From Candidatus Woesearchaeota archaeon (GTDB lineage Archaea > Nanobdellota > Nanobdellia > SCGC-AAA011-G17 > JAGVXY01): a DNA stretch of 64,000 nucleotides. Position numbers and translations under genes: made by a program. The first letter of the stretch is position 1. Each line of letters begins with the position of its first letter. The notes beneath the pieces were generated by a model. It was not told the DNA's origin. It did not search any database and worked only from the letters and a program-made list of their open reading frames with translations. The stretch is from the NCBI GenBank assembly GCA_018303545.1, contig JAGVXY010000010.1:1643-65642 (forward strand). Reading direction: 5' to 3'. This document shows, in pieces, positions 29,574-37,044 of this stretch.

Positions 29574-29699
29574 TCATTAACCAAAAAGATTAAATACATT
29601 TATTCTTATCATTCCAGACAAAATGACGGAACTAATATACCTCAATGACTCTTATTTAAAAGAGTTTGATGCCAAAGTTTTAAAGGTCGAAGGAAAATT
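29574..29699. repeat. Left copy of a 126-bp direct repeat (1 mismatch versus 36919..37044)
   Basis: Direct alignment by eye: tcattaaccaaaaagattaaatacatttattcttatcattccagacaaaatgacggaaCtaatatacctc...ggaaaatt. Confidence 0.9.
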
Positions 29700-29706
29700 T
29701 GTATAA
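29623..29706 (+). pseudogene. Truncated duplicate of the 5' end of the alaX-like gene (27 codons, then a stop)
   Basis: MTELIYLNDSYLKEFDAKVLKVEGKFV* is identical over 25 aa to the start of ORF 36968..37669. Confidence 0.6.
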
Positions 29707-29822
29707 TTATTTGTTATTTCTTACCTATCTATTTGTTTTAAGTTTTGACATTTTTATGTTAATTGTTATGAAATATTATCGGTCACTAACCAAACAATAA
29801 TAAGTAAGTTATAATGGCCCTA

Positions 29823-30359
29823 TTATTTTATCAATCTCTTTTCTTCAAAATCTTTGTGGGCTTGTGAAGCCTTTGGTCCATTGCTACCCTGATATTTTCC
29901 TTCGTATAATTTAATCTTTCCTTTGGTAACCCAAAAAGAAACTTGTCCGATTTTCATCCCAGGATATATCTTAATGGGCAGAGTAGCATATAATTGAAAA
30001 GTTATATTGCCTATTGAACCGATATCTATAAGATCTGCAGTTACATGAACAAACAAACCCAATCGAGCAATGCTTGATTTAGCATGAATGATGGGTACAA
30101 ATTTTTTACTCCCCACATCCTCCAGGCTATGACCAAGAATAAAGTCTCCTTGTCTCAACAATAATCCATTTTTTGGAATTTTTTTAATTTTATATTTGTT
30201 TTCTCTTGCAGGATCTAAAACTTTTTCAGTATACACAAGATAGTCATCTCCTAATCTTAAATCACAAGAATTTGTTGTAATCATTTTTTCATCAAAAGGA
30301 GAGATTATAATATTCTTCTTTTTTACCTGTTTTTTTATTTCTTCACCAGTTAATATCAT
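29823..30359 (-). CDS. dCTP deaminase/dUTPase-family paralog 2 with catalytic Glu replaced by Gln
   Basis: MILTGEEI...DLRLG, AKSSIARLGLFVHVTA, IDIGSIGNITFQLYA versus E. coli Dcd IDPGWSGCIVLEFYN, and PGMKIGQVSF. Confidence 0.7.
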   Translation of the reverse strand: MILTGEEIKKQVKKKNIIISPFDEKMITTNSCDLRLGDDYLVYTEKVLDPARENKYKIKKIPKNGLLLRQGDFILGHSLEDVGSKKFVPIIHAKSSIARLGLFVHVTADLIDIGSIGNITFQLYATLPIKIYPGMKIGQVSFWVTKGKIKLYEGKYQGSNGPKASQAHKDFEEKRLIK

Positions 30360-30877
30360 TTTGCCTTCCTCAATTTAGATAATTTAGGATTATTATATTT
30401 ACTATAACCTTTATCATAAGGACTCAAACGACCTCTATTATCCCAAAACGAAATCTGCCCAATAATCATGTTCGGATAAATCTTAAGTTGTTTGGCTGAA
30501 ACAAGTTCAAGTGTCCAACGATGGCAAGAACCTGTATGTCCTAAATTTGCTGAAACTTGTAAAAATAATCCCAAACGCCCAAGGGAACTTTTACCAATGA
30601 GGGACATAGCATATTTTTTACTTCCTAGAATCTCATATGTTCCTGCAAGATATGTCCTGCCCGGTTTTAGAATATAACCAGTCTCTGGTATTTTAATCCT
30701 CTTGGCGTTTTTTGTATTACCTTTAATCTTAAATAAAATCAATTCATCACCCAAACGATAATCATAACTATTAGGGTTAATTTGTTCTAAATTAAAAGGC
30801 CCTATCACTATGTTCCCTCTTTTTACTTCATTTGTAATCTTACTTCCTGTAAGTATCATTTTAAAATAATTCGACAT
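30356..30877 (-). CDS. dcd: dCTP deaminase/dUTPase-family paralog 1 (catalytic Glu present)
   Basis: MILTGSKI, SYDYRLG, GKSSLGRLGLFL, GHTGSCHRWTLEL and IGQISF motifs. 4-bp overlap with paralog 2. Confidence 0.75.
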   Translation of the reverse strand: MSNYFKMILTGSKITNEVKRGNIVIGPFNLEQINPNSYDYRLGDELILFKIKGNTKNAKRIKIPETGYILKPGRTYLAGTYEILGSKKYAMSLIGKSSLGRLGLFLQVSANLGHTGSCHRWTLELVSAKQLKIYPNMIIGQISFWDNRGRLSPYDKGYSKYNNPKLSKLRKAK

Positions 30878-34396: not shown

Positions 34397-35620
34397 CTAC
34401 TCATCCTCTGTTATTGTTTCGTAATATTCTTCTGGATGTGGGTGACTTAAGAAATCTAAAGGAGAACCTGTACAACCATATGCGCCTGCCTTTGTTACAA
34501 CTAATATATCCCCTATCTTTGCGGATTTAATGAAGATTTTTTTACCTAGCTTATCTTCCGCAAAACAAAGAGGCCCACAAACATCAACTATTTCCCCTGA
34601 AATATTCATTATATTAGGAAATTGTTCTTCATCTCTAGGTATTATTTCAATTGGTTGGTTCTCTCCTGTAACATTAGGTCTATTAAGATGGTTAACACCA
34701 CCACTCATAATAATATATTTTTTACCTTTTGATTCCTTAATATCAAGTATTTCACTGCAATAATATCCACACTCACCCACAATATATCTCCCTAATTCCA
34801 AAATTATTTTCCTATCATTGTACCCTAATTTATCAATACTTTCTTTTAAATGAGAAGAATAACTTTCTAAATCAAAAATTTGGTTTTTTTTAGTATAATC
34901 TATACCGAAACCTCCACCCAAATCAATTATTTCAGCCTTAATATTCACTTCTTTTTCAACATTTGAAACTAAATCTAAAACCGAATTAGTGTAATCAATT
35001 AAAACATCAGAATCCATAATCCCCGAAGCACCAAATACATGAAAACCCTTAATTTTTATGAAAGGCATTTCTTTTTGAATAATTTTTATACTTCCTATCA
35101 AATCATCTTCCTCTATTCCAAATTTTGTTGATAAACCCGCCATATTTGTGGAAGTGGCACCATGAACACAATAATTACTATTAACCCTTATTAAGACGTC
35201 AACAACCTTACATTTTGATTCAGCAATTTCATTGATTCTTCGAGCTTCAGTAAGAGATTCTAAATTTATTAATTCTATGCTACTATCTAGGGAGGCTTTC
35301 AATTCATATATTGTCTTACCTGGTCCAGTAAAACAAATATTTTCGGCATTAAAATATTTCAGAGCTTTATCCAGTTCGCCTTTAGAAGCAATTTCAATTC
35401 CATTACATCTTTTATGTTCACTTAAAAATCTTAAAACTTCTTTATGCGGATTAGCTTTCATTGCATAATATACAGAAACATTTTTTGGTAAAAATTTCTC
35501 TAAATAACCAAGTTGCTTTTTGACAGAAACTAAATCATATAAGTAAAAGGCAGGGTTATTTTTGAATTTATCTTCTGCACACAAAGAGATTATTCTTTTT
35601 GCTATTCTTTTATCTATCAT
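34397..35620 (-). CDS. Diaminopimelate-decarboxylase-like PLP enzyme (alanine-racemase fold)
   Basis: VYYAMKANP (PLP Lys), IDLGGGFG, ELGRYIVGECG and CGPLCFAEDKL (CESxD-type) motifs. Confidence 0.75.
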   Translation of the reverse strand: MIDKRIAKRIISLCAEDKFKNNPAFYLYDLVSVKKQLGYLEKFLPKNVSVYYAMKANPHKEVLRFLSEHKRCNGIEIASKGELDKALKYFNAENICFTGPGKTIYELKASLDSSIELINLESLTEARRINEIAESKCKVVDVLIRVNSNYCVHGATSTNMAGLSTKFGIEEDDLIGSIKIIQKEMPFIKIKGFHVFGASGIMDSDVLIDYTNSVLDLVSNVEKEVNIKAEIIDLGGGFGIDYTKKNQIFDLESYSSHLKESIDKLGYNDRKIILELGRYIVGECGYYCSEILDIKESKGKKYIIMSGGVNHLNRPNVTGENQPIEIIPRDEEQFPNIMNISGEIVDVCGPLCFAEDKLGKKIFIKSAKIGDILVVTKAGAYGCTGSPLDFLSHPHPEEYYETITEDE

Positions 35621-35634
35621 TTTAAAGCCTCTGA

Positions 35635-36687
35635 TTATTGAGGTTTATTGCCACTAACATATTCAATAATGTTTGGTGTACCCATGAATTTCCACAATTC
35701 AACTTTATCGGCACTTGATATTTTTCTATCATCCAACAAAGTATCAAGTCTATTTTTATTATAATAATCCAGTGCATCTTCATGTCCTTCTTTATCACAC
35801 ACTATTACATTTTTAAAAGGTGCAAGAGATTCATTAAGTTGACCATTTTTTAAACAATTATCAATCGATGCGTATAAAATCCTATTTAGCCCAAGCCCAC
35901 AACTATTAAATTTCATATCTTCACTATAATTGATTTTCATTGCTTTTAGTATATCTGATTTATCAGATATTACGCCTAAACTCAATCCTCTAACCGGTTT
36001 AAGATTTTTATTCCCACATTCACACTCTTTCATAAAGTACCAAAGATACTTTGAACATGGATCACAATAAGTGCCTTTATCTGGTCCCCTATCAAAGGGA
36101 TAAATAAAGTCTACGTAATAAGGTTTATCTATTTTTGGTTCATATAACTCACCAAAACCTAATTTATTGAAAAAATTGTGATAAAGGTTAGTAATATTTT
36201 CTATGACAAAATCTTGATTCTTACTTGAGTTAAGCGTATATATCGGCATTCCTATAAATGCTTTAACCAAATATGGTTGTCTAACACTCCCATCCCTAAA
36301 TCTATGCCCGATATCATAAACCAGAGTATCTTTATTATAGGGTAAATTACCTCTATTTCTCATCATATCAATCAAGAATTCTTCATCAGTCGCCGCTAAT
36401 ATGTACTGGTCATCTAATTTAAAAACCCCGTTTTGATATTCTGAATATCTTCCACTTTCTTTCCATTGTGAAATAGGTCTTATCAATGGAAAACCTACTC
36501 TTTGTAGTTCATAGGCATCGGCTAAATCTTCAAAAATTCTAGTAACATTCTTTACCATTCTAGAACCTAAAGGGGTAAACGTTACCTGCCCCTTTTCAAA
36601 TGGTTTAATTAAGTAATTTTTTACGAAATCTGAATCATTACACTGTGAAACATTTTTGGGTAAAAATAACATATTGCTTGCTTTCAT
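35635..36687 (-). CDS. Stand-alone class II aminoacyl-tRNA synthetase catalytic core paralog (class IIa-like; no anticodon-binding domain; Cys-rich insertion)
   Basis: Motif 1-like RVGFPLIRPISQWKESGRY, LAATDEE (cf. LRPTHEE), motif 2-like GHRFRDGSVRQPYLVKAF, motif 3-like CGLGLNRILYA. Insert CDPCSKY...CECG. Confidence 0.65.
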   Translation of the reverse strand: MKASNMLFLPKNVSQCNDSDFVKNYLIKPFEKGQVTFTPLGSRMVKNVTRIFEDLADAYELQRVGFPLIRPISQWKESGRYSEYQNGVFKLDDQYILAATDEEFLIDMMRNRGNLPYNKDTLVYDIGHRFRDGSVRQPYLVKAFIGMPIYTLNSSKNQDFVIENITNLYHNFFNKLGFGELYEPKIDKPYYVDFIYPFDRGPDKGTYCDPCSKYLWYFMKECECGNKNLKPVRGLSLGVISDKSDILKAMKINYSEDMKFNSCGLGLNRILYASIDNCLKNGQLNESLAPFKNVIVCDKEGHEDALDYYNKNRLDTLLDDRKISSADKVELWKFMGTPNIIEYVSGNKPQ

Positions 36688-36918
36688 GTTTATGACCTCA
36701 TTCTTGATGTATTCTTATAATTAAGCAATTTGCCTTTATAAATCTTTCGCTTTTTACCACTAATTAGTTACAATAAATCGCAAATTTCCCATCATTTTCG
36801 AAAATAAATTTGTCGCTGCTAAACCAAAACATTTTAATAGACCCCTTCTAATTTTAAAAGTTAGGTCATTTGTCTATTCAGCATCACAAGGCTATATTCG
36901 GTTCGGCCGATGCATATT

Positions 36919-37044
36919 TCATTAACCAAAAAGATTAAATACATTTATTCTTATCATTCCAGACAAAATGACGGAATTAATATACCTCAATGACTCTTAT
37001 TTAAAAGAGTTTGATGCCAAAGTTTTAAAGGTCGAAGGAAAATT
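36919..37044. repeat. Right copy of the 126-bp direct repeat (contains promoter region and first 26 codons of alaX-like gene)
   Basis: See the left copy. One C/T mismatch. Confidence 0.9.

What the first reader, a model, noticed from the sequence alone, without database searches (positions are those of the whole stretch)
29574..37044. Direct-repeat-bounded 7.2-kb island encoding a candidate aminoacyl-nucleotide / nucleotide-modification biosynthetic operon with an MccF-type immunity peptidase
**Seen in sequence:**
- Two 126-bp direct repeats (1 mismatch) bracket 29700..36918.
- All seven enclosed genes are co-directional and tightly coupled, with 4-bp overlaps at 30356-30359 and adjacent stops/starts.
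- The operon encodes, in order: a class II aaRS catalytic-core paralog, a DAP-decarboxylase-like PLP enzyme, a B12-type radical SAM protein, an S66 peptidase (MccF/LdcA family), a class I SAM methyltransferase and two dCTP-deaminase-family paralogs.

**Established knowledge:**
- MccF (S66) gives self-immunity to microcin C by cleaving the aminoacyl-nucleotide amide bond.
- aaRS-like adenylating enzymes, PLP decarboxylases and methyltransferases build Trojan-horse aminoacyl-nucleotides and peptidyl nucleosides.
- Alternatively, dCTP-deaminase-like, PLP-decarboxylase and radical SAM enzymes drive amino-acid-derived base hypermodification in phages.

**Inference:**
- This looks like a horizontally acquired cassette that makes, and protects against, an aminoacylated or amino-acid-decorated nucleotide.
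- The host appears to be an archaeon with no murein for an LdcA to act on.
- I know of no characterised archaeal cluster with this gene set.
Basis: partly seen in the sequence, partly recalled or inferred. Interest (0 to 1): 0.85.

Follow-up and report, generated by a model that had tools for sequence, protein, structure and literature searches.

The report
Mobile aminoacyl-nucleotide antibiotic-like gene cassette
A 7.2-kb, repeat-flanked gene cassette that is present in some and absent from other cells of a tiny groundwater archaeon most likely makes, and protects against, a proline-carrying nucleotide poison of protein synthesis; it belongs to a widespread gene-cluster family for which I found no published description.

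Summary
Two 126-bp direct repeats (125/126 identical) bracket seven co-directional, overlapping genes.

The right repeat is the promoter and first 26 codons of alaXM. A 99.9%-identical contig from another sample has the empty site with one repeat copy, so the island is a real insertion/deletion polymorphism. It is also the most compositionally deviant stretch of the window.

- **Links to microcin C:** three genes are homologues of its tailoring and immunity genes.
  - The "methyltransferase" has MccD (5FCD) as its only PDB hit.
  - The PLP decarboxylase corresponds to MccE1.
  - The S66 peptidase is MccF-type, with an intact catalytic triad and the base-stacking Trp.
- **No microcin C core:** there is no MccA, MccB or MccC.
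- **Cluster family:** in 64 loci, the MccD-like gene sits next to a conserved pair of diverged Dcd-like genes (60 and 58 of 64).
  - The loci come from DPANN archaea, CPR bacteria, Proteobacteria, Paenibacillus, Burkholderia and Streptomyces.
  - One Dcd-like partner has lost the catalytic Glu and the other the Asp.
  - Most loci also carry an aaRS or aaRS-like gene of variable type (Ala, Lys, Leu, Pro).
  - Many carry S66 or S51 peptidases, and some carry exporters or extra aaRS copies.
- **Agrocin 84:** its cluster shares the MccD-like, aaRS-like and MccF-like genes.

Best reading: a mobile biosynthetic cassette for a prolyl-nucleotide aaRS inhibitor with self-immunity. The product is unproven.

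The parts
29574..29699 (.). Left direct repeat (DR-L). It is an orphan copy of the alaXM promoter plus 5' coding end and forms the left boundary of the island.
   Evidence: 125/126 identical to 36919-37044. It carries C at offset 58, where DR-R and the empty site carry T.
29623..29706 (+). Orphan 27-codon ORF (MTELIYLNDSYLKEFDAKVLKVEGKFV*), the duplicated alaXM start running into island DNA.
   Evidence: Read directly from the sequence. It is probably not functional.
29823..30359 (-). Dcd-like protein 'DCDq' (178 aa). The catalytic Glu is replaced by Gln; the Asp of the IDxG motif and the C-terminal triphosphate lid are kept.
   Evidence: Pfam DCD 5e-37; TIGR02274 118.7 bits, above the 92.8 cut-off. 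PDB alignment to the M. tuberculosis Dcd. Gln129 in 44 of 49 family members (Met in the other 5) and Asp119 in 49 of 49.
30356..30877 (-). Dcd-like protein 'DCDe' (173 aa). The Glu is kept; the I-D motif is replaced by G-H, with extra invariant His124 and Trp126. It is always paired with DCDq.
   Evidence: Pfam DCD 2e-29; TIGR02274 72 bits, below the cut-off. Family-wide invariants are shown. It lies next to the MccD-like gene in 60 of 64 loci.
30861..31682 (-). MccD-family SAM-dependent enzyme (273 aa), predicted to be a 3-amino-3-carboxypropyl transferase rather than a plain methyltransferase.
   Evidence: Its only PDB hit is 5FCD MccD (8e-25, full length). BLASTP to E. coli MccD: 28% identity, 5e-31. 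The best plasmid hits are all mccD genes. The N- and C-terminal motifs are shared. It is also homologous to AgnB1 (3e-27).
31657..32763 (-). S66 serine peptidase of the MccF type (368 aa), predicted to give self-immunity by cleaving the aminoacyl-nucleotide amide bond.
   Evidence: PDB hits: B. anthracis 'MccC family protein' 3e-91 and MccF 6e-25. E. coli MccF 28% identity, 2e-28. The Ser115/Glu243/His329 triad is invariant and Trp181 aligns with MccF W186. The LdcA model scores 51.7 against a cut-off of 378.
32816..34396 (-). Radical SAM enzyme of the B12-binding class (526 aa), an accessory tailoring enzyme that is probably a methylase.
   Evidence: Pfam Radical_SAM 2e-19. The best NCBIfam hit is the PhpK family, at 141.7 against a cut-off of 600. 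It is absent from the sister cluster L009. Homologues at 52-58% identity sit in related clusters L084 and L085.
34397..35620 (-). PLP-dependent decarboxylase of the Orn/DAP/Arg fold (407 aa), predicted to convert the aminocarboxypropyl group to aminopropyl, the MccE1 role.
   Evidence: Pfam 5.5e-37. lysA scores 225.6, below the 297.9 cut-off. MccE N-terminal domain: 23% identity, 2e-12. The best PDB hits are 6KNH and the butirosin enzyme BtrK, ahead of true LysA.
35635..36687 (-). ProRS-derived class II aaRS-like ligase (350 aa). It has a Zn ribbon in place of the INS domain and a truncated anticodon-binding domain. It is predicted to activate proline and supply the aminoacyl moiety.
   Evidence: NCBIfam ProRS 1e-20 (73.9 against a cut-off of 558). 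PDB ProRS 2e-10. In alignment A4, TDEE and motif 3 GLGLNR are kept, motif 2 reads FRDG with a 2-residue deletion, and the C-terminus is truncated. Only two close homologues exist: P0002 (61%) in the searched protein databases and a partial copy on L020.
36734..36756 (-). Putative archaeal BRE/TATA promoter of the operon (AAAAGCGAAAGATTTATAAAGG). A GAGGT Shine-Dalgarno-like element lies 8 nt before the ATG.
   Evidence: Read. The same AAAGCGAAA(A/G)(T/A)TTTATAAA element precedes the orthologous gene in L009. This is an inference and has not been tested.
36919..37044 (.). Right direct repeat (DR-R), which is the authentic alaXM promoter plus codons 1-26 and forms the right boundary of the island.
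   Evidence: It is identical to the single copy in the empty-site contig L013.
36968..37669 (+). alaXM (alanyl-tRNA editing protein), the host gene whose 5' end served as the insertion or recombination site.
   Evidence: NCBIfam AlaXM equivalog: 3e-90, 301.9 bits against a cut-off of 300.

Best explanation
The island is a horizontally mobile biosynthetic cassette in a Woesearchaeota (DPANN) genome. It most likely makes a small aminoacyl-nucleotide antimetabolite that mimics prolyl-adenylate and inhibits prolyl-tRNA synthetase. The product would be of the same general kind as processed microcin C, the agrocin 84 warhead and phosmidosine. The cassette also protects its producer.

Proposed roles (all inferred):
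1. The ProRS-derived ligase activates proline with ATP and delivers the prolyl group.
2. The two diverged Dcd-like proteins, probably a heteromer, bind a pyrimidine (d)NTP and supply or process the nucleotide moiety. They may even form the bond at the alpha-phosphate, taking the place of MccB.
3. The MccD-like enzyme transfers a 3-amino-3-carboxypropyl group from SAM, and the PLP decarboxylase trims it to aminopropyl.
4. The B12-type radical SAM enzyme adds an optional methyl-type decoration.
5. The MccF-type S66 peptidase cleaves the aminoacyl-nucleotide amide bond inside the producer, giving immunity.

Shown by the evidence:
- The insertion/deletion polymorphism.
- The homologies.
- The conserved MccD-like plus Dcd-pair plus variable-aaRS architecture across 64 loci.

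Also inferred: the cassette entered by a single crossover between a circular DNA carrying a 126-bp copy of the alaXM 5' region and the chromosome.
For: **Mobility**
- The empty-site contig L013 joins 28165-29699 to 36919-41585 through one repeat copy at 99.9% identity.
- The island is the most deviant tetranucleotide window (rank 1 of 57) and has a GC of 0.30.
- Assemblies break at the repeats (L007, L003, L006).
- The sister cluster L009 is also flanked by repeats.

**Function of the island genes**
- MccD family: its only PDB hit is 5FCD, at 8e-25. BLASTP to MccD gives 5e-31, and the top plasmid hits are mccD genes in mcc operons.
- MccF type: the catalytic triad and the W186 equivalent are conserved.
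- The PLP decarboxylase is closer to secondary-metabolite decarboxylases than to LysA.
- The ProRS-like protein keeps the TDEE and motif 3 residues but is not a bona fide ProRS.

**The cluster family** (64 loci)
- DCDe is present in 60 loci, DCDq in 58, S66 in 42, the PLP decarboxylase in 29, some aaRS or aaRS-like gene in 54, and MccB in none.
- The aaRS type varies: AlaRS core, class IIb LysRS-like, ProRS-like, LeuRS and class I LysRS.
- Clusters in cultured bacteria carry ABC or MFS exporters, P450, carbamoyltransferase and ATP-grasp genes. Actinomycete clusters also carry an extra class I LysRS next to a class II LysRS-like gene.
- An S51 peptidase, the second known family of microcin C immunity peptidases, sits in L085.

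**Agrocin 84**
- Its cluster shares an MccD-like gene (AgnB1, 3e-27), an aaRS-like synthetase (AgnA), an MccF-like gene (AgnC5) and a resistant LeuRS.

**Established knowledge**
- The roles of MccD, MccE1, MccF, AgnA and AgnB2 are taken from PMC8323819.
Against: - No product is known for any member of this cluster family.
- The island has no exporter, no uptake ('Trojan horse') module and no resistant ProRS copy.
- It has no MccB-like enzyme, and no enzyme in it is known to make a P-N bond, so the key coupling step is conjectural.
- The chemistry of the Dcd-like pair is unknown. One partner still passes the dCTP deaminase model cut-off.
- Similarity of the PLP decarboxylase to MccE1 is only at the fold-family level (23% identity).
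- The ProRS-like protein has a damaged motif 2 (FRDG, loop Arg lost), so adenylation activity is not assured.
- The AlphaFold model of it was unusable (pLDDT 51.6).
- No integrase lies on the island, and no circular junction was found.
Confidence: 0.58

Rival explanations
1. The cassette is a nucleotide-pool or nucleic-acid hypermodification module. In this reading the Dcd-like pair, the SAM enzyme, the PLP decarboxylase, the radical SAM and the aaRS-like ligase build an amino-acid-decorated pyrimidine that is incorporated into the cell's own DNA or RNA, for example to evade restriction. The S66 enzyme would trim or recycle it.
For: - Dcd-family proteins act on dCTP and dUTP and match a phage dCTP deaminase PHROG (phrog_1663, 1.7e-45).
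- Aminocarboxypropyl and aminopropyl groups occur on modified nucleosides (own knowledge).
- The island has no exporter.
Against: - No relative of the MccD-like gene was found in 2.9 million IMG/VR contigs or 50,697 phage genomes.
- The island has no kinase, glycosylase, polymerase or thymidylate-synthase-like gene.
- Relatives in Streptomyces, Paenibacillus and Burkholderia carry exporters, P450 genes and extra aaRS copies typical of antibiotic clusters.
- S66 and S51 peptidases and a variable aaRS type have no obvious role in base modification.
Confidence: 0.1
2. The cassette is an anti-virus or conflict system. On infection it would make a toxic nucleotide analogue, or deplete dCTP, to arrest translation or replication (abortive infection), with S66 acting as the antidote.
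For: - It lies in a variable, presence/absence locus next to a RelE-like small gene pair and a tRNA gene.
- Nucleotide-depleting and nucleotide-modifying defence systems exist (own knowledge).
- The radical SAM enzyme weakly matches a candidate defence family (PDC-M51A, 5e-19).
Against: - PADLOC gave no hit for the Dcd-like proteins, the S66 enzyme, the decarboxylase or the ProRS-like protein. It gave only generic fold matches for the two SAM enzymes.
- The island has no sensor or effector typical of defence systems.
- The same core sits in classical secondary-metabolite contexts that include exporters.
Confidence: 0.1
3. The cassette makes a small molecule that is not an aaRS inhibitor. Examples would be an aminopropylated or aminoacylated nucleotide serving as a cofactor, a signal or a cell-surface precursor for an episymbiotic lifestyle. 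The S66 enzyme would then act in maturation or turnover rather than immunity.
For: - The island has no exporter and no resistant ProRS.
- The family is strikingly enriched in CPR and DPANN episymbionts.
- The PLP decarboxylase's best NCBIfam match is an exopolysaccharide-locus decarboxylase family (TIGR03099, 281.8 bits, below the cut-off).
Against: - The aaRS type varies, and full-length second aaRS copies appear in some clusters (class I LysRS in the actinomycetes Paractinoplanes and Kitasatospora, LeuRS in others). That is the hallmark of aaRS-targeting antibiotics (PMC8323819).
- Both known microcin C immunity peptidase families recur in these clusters.
Confidence: 0.17
4. These are ordinary housekeeping genes (lysA, dcd, dut, a spare ProRS, ldcA) that happen to be adjacent, and the repeat is a local duplication.
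For: - DCDq passes the dCTP deaminase equivalog cut-off (118.7 against 92.8).
- A Dcd plus a Dut-like partner could in principle feed dTMP synthesis.
Against: - A nearly identical strain lacks the whole island.
- lysA, ProRS and LdcA all score below their cut-offs.
- DCDq lacks the catalytic Glu.
- The gene set travels together across archaea and many bacterial phyla at 60-74% identity.
- A DPANN archaeon has no murein for an LdcA to act on (own knowledge).
Confidence: 0.02

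Closest known systems
Microcin C operon (mccABCDEF) of E. coli plasmids such as MccC7-H22
   Same: The island has homologues of MccD (SAM-dependent aminocarboxypropyl transferase), of the PLP-decarboxylase domain of MccE, and of the S66 immunity peptidase MccF with its catalytic triad and base-stacking Trp. The inferred product class is a non-hydrolysable aminoacyl-nucleotide that poisons an aaRS.
   Different: The island has no MccA precursor peptide, no ThiF-like MccB, no MccC pump and no GNAT domain. Instead it has an aaRS-derived ligase and a pair of Dcd-like proteins. 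Identities are only 23-28%. True mcc operons (L077-L080) form a separate clade of MccD homologues, at 24-32% identity.
Agrocin 84 (agn) cluster of pAgK84, Rhizobium rhizogenes K84
   Same: It combines an aaRS-like 'synthetase' (AgnA, class IIb core), an MccD-family SAM enzyme (AgnB1, 26% identity, 3e-27), an MccF-like S66 peptidase (AgnC5) and radical SAM and SAM tailoring enzymes. The product is a leucyl-adenylate mimic. Some relatives of the island also carry a LeuRS copy like AgnB2.
   Different: The agn cluster has no Dcd-like pair. It contains many sugar and pentanamide genes that are absent here. The island's ligase is ProRS-derived, not AsnA/LysRS-like. Profile similarity to AgnC1 is inconclusive (hhalign probability 39%). 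The agrocin pathway itself is unsolved (PMC8323819).
Phosmidosine (Streptomyces), an N-prolyl phosphoramidate of 8-oxoadenosine; also the pyrimidine phosphoramidates EM2487 and 1100-50
   Same: These are natural prolyl-AMP-like or pyrimidine phosphoramidate nucleotides, which is the type of product predicted here. Homologous clusters exist in Streptomyces (L068, L069, L076).
   Different: This is only a lead from the literature (PMC11229370, PMC6429109). I know of no assigned gene cluster for these compounds, and nothing links them to this cluster.
Integrative genomic islands or cis-mobilisable elements that insert at gene ends and duplicate the target
   Same: Direct repeats that reconstitute the 5' end of the target gene, an occupied/empty polymorphism, deviant composition, and cargo of accessory genes.
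   Different: There is no integrase or recombinase on the island. The 126-bp identity segment is long. No circular form was detected. The mechanism may be plain homologous (Campbell-type) recombination.

Membership tests
Microcin C (mcc) biosynthetic operon | A short MccA precursor ORF ending in Asn | tested here: not met
   Small ORFs ending in Asn exist upstream. None is conserved in the sister cluster L009, and they lie upstream of the conserved TATA box.
Microcin C (mcc) biosynthetic operon | A ThiF-like adenylyl/cytidylyl transferase, MccB | tested here: not met
   No such domain is found in the island. tblastn with MccB found it in none of 64 related loci, but did find it in the true mcc loci L077-L080.
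Microcin C (mcc) biosynthetic operon | An MccD-family SAM enzyme (aminocarboxypropyl transferase) | tested here: met
   The only PDB hit is 5FCD MccD, at 8e-25 over residues 4-259. BLASTP gives 5e-31. Invariant N- and C-terminal motifs are shared. The catalytic activity itself was not tested.
Microcin C (mcc) biosynthetic operon | A PLP decarboxylase of the MccE N-terminal type | tested here: inconclusive
   The fold is the same, with 23% identity and 2e-12 to MccE residues 28-370. The protein is closer to 6KNH and BtrK, so orthology is not shown.
MccF-type S66 peptidase (as opposed to LdcA) | A Ser-His-Glu triad plus the nucleobase-stacking Trp (W186 of MccF) | tested here: met
   Ser115, Glu243 and His329 are invariant, and Trp181 aligns with W186. 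PDB hits are MccF-type, from 3e-91 to 1e-14. The LdcA model NF008424 scores 51.7 against a cut-off of 378.
Agrocin 84-type (agn) cluster | Co-occurrence of an aaRS-like synthetase, an AgnB1-type SAM enzyme and an MccF-like peptidase | tested here: met
   AgnB1 against the island enzyme gives 3e-27. AgnC5 is hit by the island S66. The aaRS-like ligase is present but belongs to a different subclass.
Agrocin 84-type (agn) cluster | A resistant second copy of the target aaRS (AgnB2-like) | tested here: not met
   The island has none. Candidate copies occur in relatives: LeuRS in L019, L024 and L050, and class I LysRS in L042, L066 and L070.
Bona fide prolyl-tRNA synthetase | Score above the family cut-off, intact motifs 2 and 3, and a complete anticodon-binding domain | tested here: not met
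   The best ProRS model scores 73.9 against a cut-off of 558. Motif 2 reads FRDG, with a 2-residue deletion and loss of the loop Arg. The C-terminal domain is truncated by about 35 residues. Motif 3 and TDEE are kept.
dCTP deaminase (Dcd / Dcd-Dut) | The catalytic Glu (E129 in M. tuberculosis) together with the Asp of the IDPG motif in the same subunit | tested here: not met
   DCDq has Gln129 and Asp119. DCDe has Glu129 and His119. Both substitutions are conserved across 47-49 family members.
Diaminopimelate decarboxylase LysA | Score above the TIGR01048 cut-off | tested here: not met
   225.6 bits against a cut-off of 297.9.
Integrative mobile element | Flanking direct repeats and an unoccupied site in a related genome | tested here: met
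Integrative mobile element | An element-encoded integrase or recombinase, and a detectable circular form | tested here: not met
   No recombinase domain occurs in the seven genes. The circular-junction pattern gave 0 hits in JGI metagenome contigs. Raw reads were not available. Serine recombinases flank some bacterial relatives (L035, L038, L051).
Phage-type thymidine or cytidine hypermodification cluster | Presence on viral genomes, with kinase, pyrophosphorylase and hydroxymethylase partners | tested here: not met
   No viral relative of the MccD-like gene was found. The island has no such partner genes.
PhpK-family B12 radical SAM P-methyltransferase | Score above the TIGR04479 cut-off | tested here: not met
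   141.7 bits against a cut-off of 600. It belongs to the same broad B12-rSAM class, since homologues carry PF02310, but its substrate is unknown.

The most novel reading that the evidence does not exclude
The island is the first archaeal example of a large, unrecognised family of ribosome-independent aminoacyl-nucleotide antibiotic clusters, in which:
- an aaRS-derived ligase sets the amino acid (Ala, Lys, Leu or Pro);
- a split, mutually complementary Dcd-like heteromer takes the place of MccB in supplying the nucleotide or forming the aminoacyl-nucleotide linkage;
- an MccD-like enzyme, with or without a decarboxylase, decorates the product.

The family spans DPANN archaea, CPR bacteria, Proteobacteria, Firmicutes and Streptomyces. 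It moves as a cassette between domains, and ultra-small episymbionts may use it against hosts or competitors.
Probability: 0.4. Interest if true: 0.9.

Novelty: new variant of a known kind. Interest (0 to 1): 0.8.

Why it matters
- **New antibiotic chemistry.** Natural aaRS inhibitors of the aminoacyl-adenylate-mimic type are few: microcin C, agrocin 84, albomycin, ascamycin and phosmidosine. They are valued as antibiotic leads. How the acyl-phosphoramidate bond of agrocin 84 is made remains unsolved (PMC8323819), and I know of no solved pathway for phosmidosine.
- **A testable route.** This cluster family has a swappable aaRS-like gene and a new Dcd-like enzyme pair. It would offer a route to 'programmable' aminoacyl-nucleotides and new enzymology for a dUTPase/Dcd-fold heteromer.
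- **Possible links to orphan compounds.** The Streptomyces relatives may explain some orphan phosphoramidate nucleotides.
- **Ecology.** The cassette shows that DPANN archaea and CPR bacteria, whose genomes are otherwise minimal, exchange and keep a secondary-metabolite cassette. That bears on how these episymbionts compete or control their hosts.
- **A natural experiment.** The occupied/empty polymorphism within one population allows a direct comparison of cells with and without the island.

Tried and rejected
- **Precursor peptide.** I searched for an MccA-like precursor. Several short ORFs ending in Asn lie upstream of the operon and between the radical SAM and S66 genes. None is conserved in L009, and they lie outside the predicted transcript. 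Rejected.
- **Structure of the ProRS-like protein.** The AlphaFold2 model from a 13-sequence alignment had a mean pLDDT of 51.6. It was too poor for a fold search and was not used.
- **Circular junction.** An exact 176-nt pattern for the excised circular form gave no match in JGI metagenome contigs.
- **Empty site in JGI contigs.** The empty-site pattern also gave no match there. The empty site is known only from Logan assemblies (L013 plus one similar place).
- **L007.** This 7279-bp contig holds the island alone, but it ends about 30 nt inside each repeat. That is what a k=31 assembly graph break produces, so it is not evidence for a circle.
- **AgnC1.** It has no pairwise similarity to the ProRS-like or AlaRS-like proteins. 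The profile comparison gave a probability of 39%. Inconclusive.
- **AgnA and AgnC7.** AgnA against the AlaRS-like protein, and AgnC7 against the 372-aa radical SAM-like protein of L019, showed no similarity.
- **Defence and mobile-element databases.** PADLOC gave only generic matches. The island DNA is absent from the plasmid collection.
- **Literature.** Searches for MccD together with dCTP deaminase, for SrmL, and for phosphoramidate clusters found no description of this cluster type.
- **Flanking repeats elsewhere.** Repeats around other related clusters (L016, L019, L022, L074) were not found.

Full report
**1. The observation**

The repeats are real. Positions 29574-29699 and 36919-37044 are 125/126 identical, and the repeat finder extends them to 129 nt at 98%.

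Seven ORFs lie between them on the minus strand, with 4-, 17- and 26-bp overlaps and one abutting pair.

The one gene without a Pfam hit (35635-36687) matches bacterial-type ProRS in three ways:
- NCBIfam: 1e-20.
- PDB: 2e-10.
- HMMER against 1.8 billion representatives: end-to-end alignments to about 400-aa ProRS-like proteins that lack the INS (insertion) domain and carry a Zn ribbon.

The right repeat is the promoter and first 26 codons of alaXM, an AlaXM equivalog at 3e-90. The left repeat is an orphan duplicate.

**2. The host and the mobility of the island**

The host is a Candidatus Woesearchaeota archaeon from groundwater metagenomes. GatDE, AlaXM and a tRNA with an internal insertion fit an archaeon.

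Twelve contigs from several samples carry the identical aaRS-like protein. One contig, L013 (Logan SRR3989309), has the same flanks at 99.9% identity but no island. In it, window 28165-29699 runs into 36919-41585 through a single repeat copy. That copy equals the right repeat; the left repeat carries a synonymous C.

The island is the most deviant 7.2-kb window by tetranucleotide composition (rank 1 of 57) and has the lowest GC, at 0.30.

These data show an insertion/deletion polymorphism. A simple model fits them: a circle carrying the cassette plus a 126-bp alaXM 5' segment recombined within the first 58 nt of the homology. This model is inferred. The island carries no recombinase, and a search for the circular junction in JGI contigs found nothing.

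The only close relatives of the ProRS-like gene are on L009 and L020. In L009, repeated copies of the 5' part of a flanking gene again lie on both sides of the cluster.

**3. What the genes are**

- **The 'methyltransferase' (30861-31682).** It is an MccD-family protein.
  - Its only PDB hit at E<=1e-3 is 5FCD MccD, at 8e-25 over the full length.
  - All its best hits in 72,556 plasmids are the mccD genes of microcin C operons.
  - Pairwise BLASTP to E. coli MccD gives 5e-31.
  - N- and C-terminal motifs outside the Rossmann core are shared.
  - MccD transfers a 3-amino-3-carboxypropyl group from SAM to the phosphoramidate, and the N-terminal domain of MccE decarboxylates it (PMC8323819).
- **The PLP decarboxylase.** It has the same fold as MccE1 (2e-12). 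It scores below the LysA cut-off. It is closest to decarboxylases that act on conjugated amino acids, such as BtrK.
- **The S66 protein.**
  - It is 28% identical to MccF (2e-28) and scores 3e-91 (about 55% identity by inspection of the printed alignment) against a Bacillus anthracis MccF-like structure.
  - The catalytic triad is invariant, and Trp181 aligns with the adenine-stacking W186 of MccF.
  - It is far from LdcA (51.7 against a cut-off of 378).
- **The radical SAM enzyme.** It belongs to the B12-binding class, with PhpK as the best but far sub-threshold match. It is absent from the sister cluster L009, so it is an accessory gene.
- **The two Dcd-like proteins.** They have diverged in complementary ways.
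  - DCDq keeps the Asp of the IDxG motif and the C-terminal triphosphate lid, but has Gln in place of the catalytic Glu.
  - DCDe keeps the Glu, but has Gly-His in place of Ile-Asp, plus invariant His124 and Trp126.
  - Both patterns hold across 47-49 homologous pairs.
- **The ProRS-like protein.** It keeps TDEE (THEE in ProRS) and motif 3. Motif 2 reads FRDG with a 2-residue deletion, and the anticodon-binding domain is truncated. It is therefore not a working ProRS, but it is plausibly still an adenylating enzyme.

**4. The island belongs to a large cluster family**

The ProRS-like gene is almost unique: one homologue at 61% among 5.8 billion proteins. The MccD-like gene is not. It has more than 500 homologues, and the 120 listed are 60-74% identical. 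They come from Woesearchaeota, Nanoarchaeota and CPR bacteria such as Moranbacteria, Uhrbacteria, WWE3 and Saccharibacteria. Further relatives occur at 42-57% in Burkholderia lata, Paenibacillus baekrokdamisoli, Paractinoplanes maris, Streptomyces and Kitasatospora.

In 64 loci with an MccD-like gene at 40% identity or more:

| Neighbouring gene | Loci (of 64) |
|---|---|
| DCDe | 60 |
| DCDq | 58 |
| S66 | 42 |
| PLP decarboxylase | 29 |
| Any aaRS or aaRS-like gene | 54 |
| MccB | 0 |

Most of the loci without an aaRS gene are short contigs.

The aaRS partner varies:
- AlaRS catalytic-core paralogs (33 loci).
- Divergent class II LysRS-like proteins (17 loci).
- ProRS-like proteins (3 loci).
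- Full-length LeuRS, class I LysRS and SerRS.
- The NCBIfam 'PheS-related mystery ligase SrmL'.

Clusters in cultured bacteria look like antibiotic gene clusters:
- ABC or MFS exporters.
- P450, carbamoyltransferase, ATP-grasp and extra methyltransferase genes.
- In Paractinoplanes and Kitasatospora, a class I LysRS beside a class II LysRS-like gene.

One relative carries an S51 peptidase, the second known family of microcin C immunity peptidases (PMC9239234).

The S66 and decarboxylase genes belong to different subfamilies in different cluster types, at 24-69% identity to the island copies. This suggests repeated recruitment for the same role.

**5. Relation to agrocin 84**

The agn cluster of pAgK84 contains:
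- an aaRS-like 'agrocin 84 synthetase' AgnA, with a class IIb core (6e-12 to the LysRS-like proteins);
- immediately next to it, an MccD-family enzyme AgnB1 (3e-27 to the island enzyme);
- the resistant LeuRS AgnB2;
- the MccF-like AgnC5.

The review PMC8323819 states that the agrocin pathway is unknown and that AgnA was proposed to attach the acyl moiety to AMP through the phosphoramide bond. The island family therefore shares a three-gene logic with agn (aaRS-like ligase, MccD-like enzyme, MccF-like peptidase) and a different three-gene logic with mcc (MccD, MccE1, MccF).

**6. Most likely mechanism**

- **Shown:**
  - The cassette is mobile and dispensable.
  - MccD-, MccE1- and MccF-type proteins are present.
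  - The MccD-like gene, the Dcd pair and a variable aaRS gene are linked across many loci.
- **Inferred:**
  - The ProRS-derived ligase supplies an activated prolyl group.
  - The Dcd-like pair provides or processes a pyrimidine nucleotide and may form the linkage at the alpha-phosphate, the step that MccB performs in microcin C.
  - The MccD-like enzyme plus the decarboxylase install an aminopropyl group.
  - The radical SAM enzyme methylates.
  - The S66 enzyme hydrolyses the aminoacyl-nucleotide amide to protect the producer.

The product would be a prolyl-adenylate mimic. Phosmidosine, a natural N-prolyl phosphoramidate nucleotide, shows that such compounds exist (PMC11229370), but nothing links it to this cluster.

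Weak points:
- The island has no exporter and no resistant ProRS.
- No enzyme in it has a demonstrated ability to form a P-N bond.
- Motif 2 of the ligase is degenerate.

**7. Rivals**

- **Phage-like base hypermodification.** Disfavoured by the absence of any viral relative, the absence of the partner enzymes, and the antibiotic-cluster context of the bacterial relatives.
- **A defence system.** No PADLOC support.
- **Housekeeping genes.** Excluded by the empty site and the sub-threshold scores.
- **A non-antibiotic metabolite.** This remains possible.

**8. Novelty**

Full-text searches found no description of this architecture. NCBIfam has no specific model for the MccD-like or Dcd-like members.

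I rate it a new variant of a known kind: aminoacyl-nucleotide aaRS-inhibitor clusters. It has new core enzymology and appears to be the first archaeal example.

Limits: all functional statements rest on homology and gene context, and no chemistry was tested.

Noticed in passing
window 28744-28846 (+): A tRNA-Gly(UCC) gene with a 34-nt insertion in the D-loop region. Rfam finds it (45.9 bits) but ARAGORN misses it. It lies about 730 bp to the left of the island and is also present beside the empty site.
   Followed up: partly
window 28851-29186 and 29235-29519 (-): Two small co-oriented ORFs of 111 and 94 aa, between the tRNA and the left repeat. The 111-aa protein has a faint RelE/StbE match (0.0096). 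They may be a toxin-antitoxin pair. Both are present at the empty site, so they are not part of the island.
   Followed up: partly
L006 (ANAN16-1 scaffold_827), corresponding to window 31528-31569: In one assembly a 42-bp segment at the overlap of the S66 and MccD-like genes is inverted. The gene caller then gives a 266-aa methyltransferase with no Pfam hit. This is either a real micro-inversion variant or an assembly artefact.
   Followed up: no
L025 13543-14658 (-), and the equivalent position in about 10 related loci: A 371-aa protein that matches NCBIfam NF051887, 'PheS-related mystery ligase SrmL' (400 bits against a cut-off of 300). In several loci a small (about 89-aa) ORF sits next to it. 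It is divergently adjacent to the Lys-type clusters, and its role is unknown.
   Followed up: partly
L009 1-50 and 5609-5716; L020 4622-4747 and 5870-5995: A repeated segment of about 126 nt that appears to be coding (VAFD(K/R)KIGWKAL.MIPDRE..FGIEKM...). It flanks the ProRS-type cluster in L009 and occurs twice downstream of it in L020. These may be paralogous gene starts that act as recombination sites.
   Followed up: partly
L085 3243-3992 (-): A Peptidase_S51 gene inside a related cluster. S51 peptidases are the second family reported to confer resistance to microcin C (PMC9239234).
   Followed up: no
L066 (Paractinoplanes maris), L070 (Kitasatospora), L042/L043: A full-length class I LysRS sits in the same cluster as a divergent class II LysRS-like gene. 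This is the pattern expected for a self-resistance aaRS against a lysyl-adenylate mimic.
   Followed up: partly
window 26191-28701 (+): An 836-aa ORF next to the tRNA, with no hit in Pfam, PADLOC or PHROGs. It is conserved in all contigs, including the empty-site contig.
   Followed up: no
window 38076-38414 and 39545-39970: A thioredoxin-like gene and a VKOR-family gene lie near alaXM, which suggests a disulfide-bond formation module in this DPANN archaeon.
   Followed up: no
window 23415-25163 (-): The SecD-like protein carries an N-terminal PDZ-like region (several sub-threshold PDZ-family Pfam matches), an unusual fusion.
   Followed up: no
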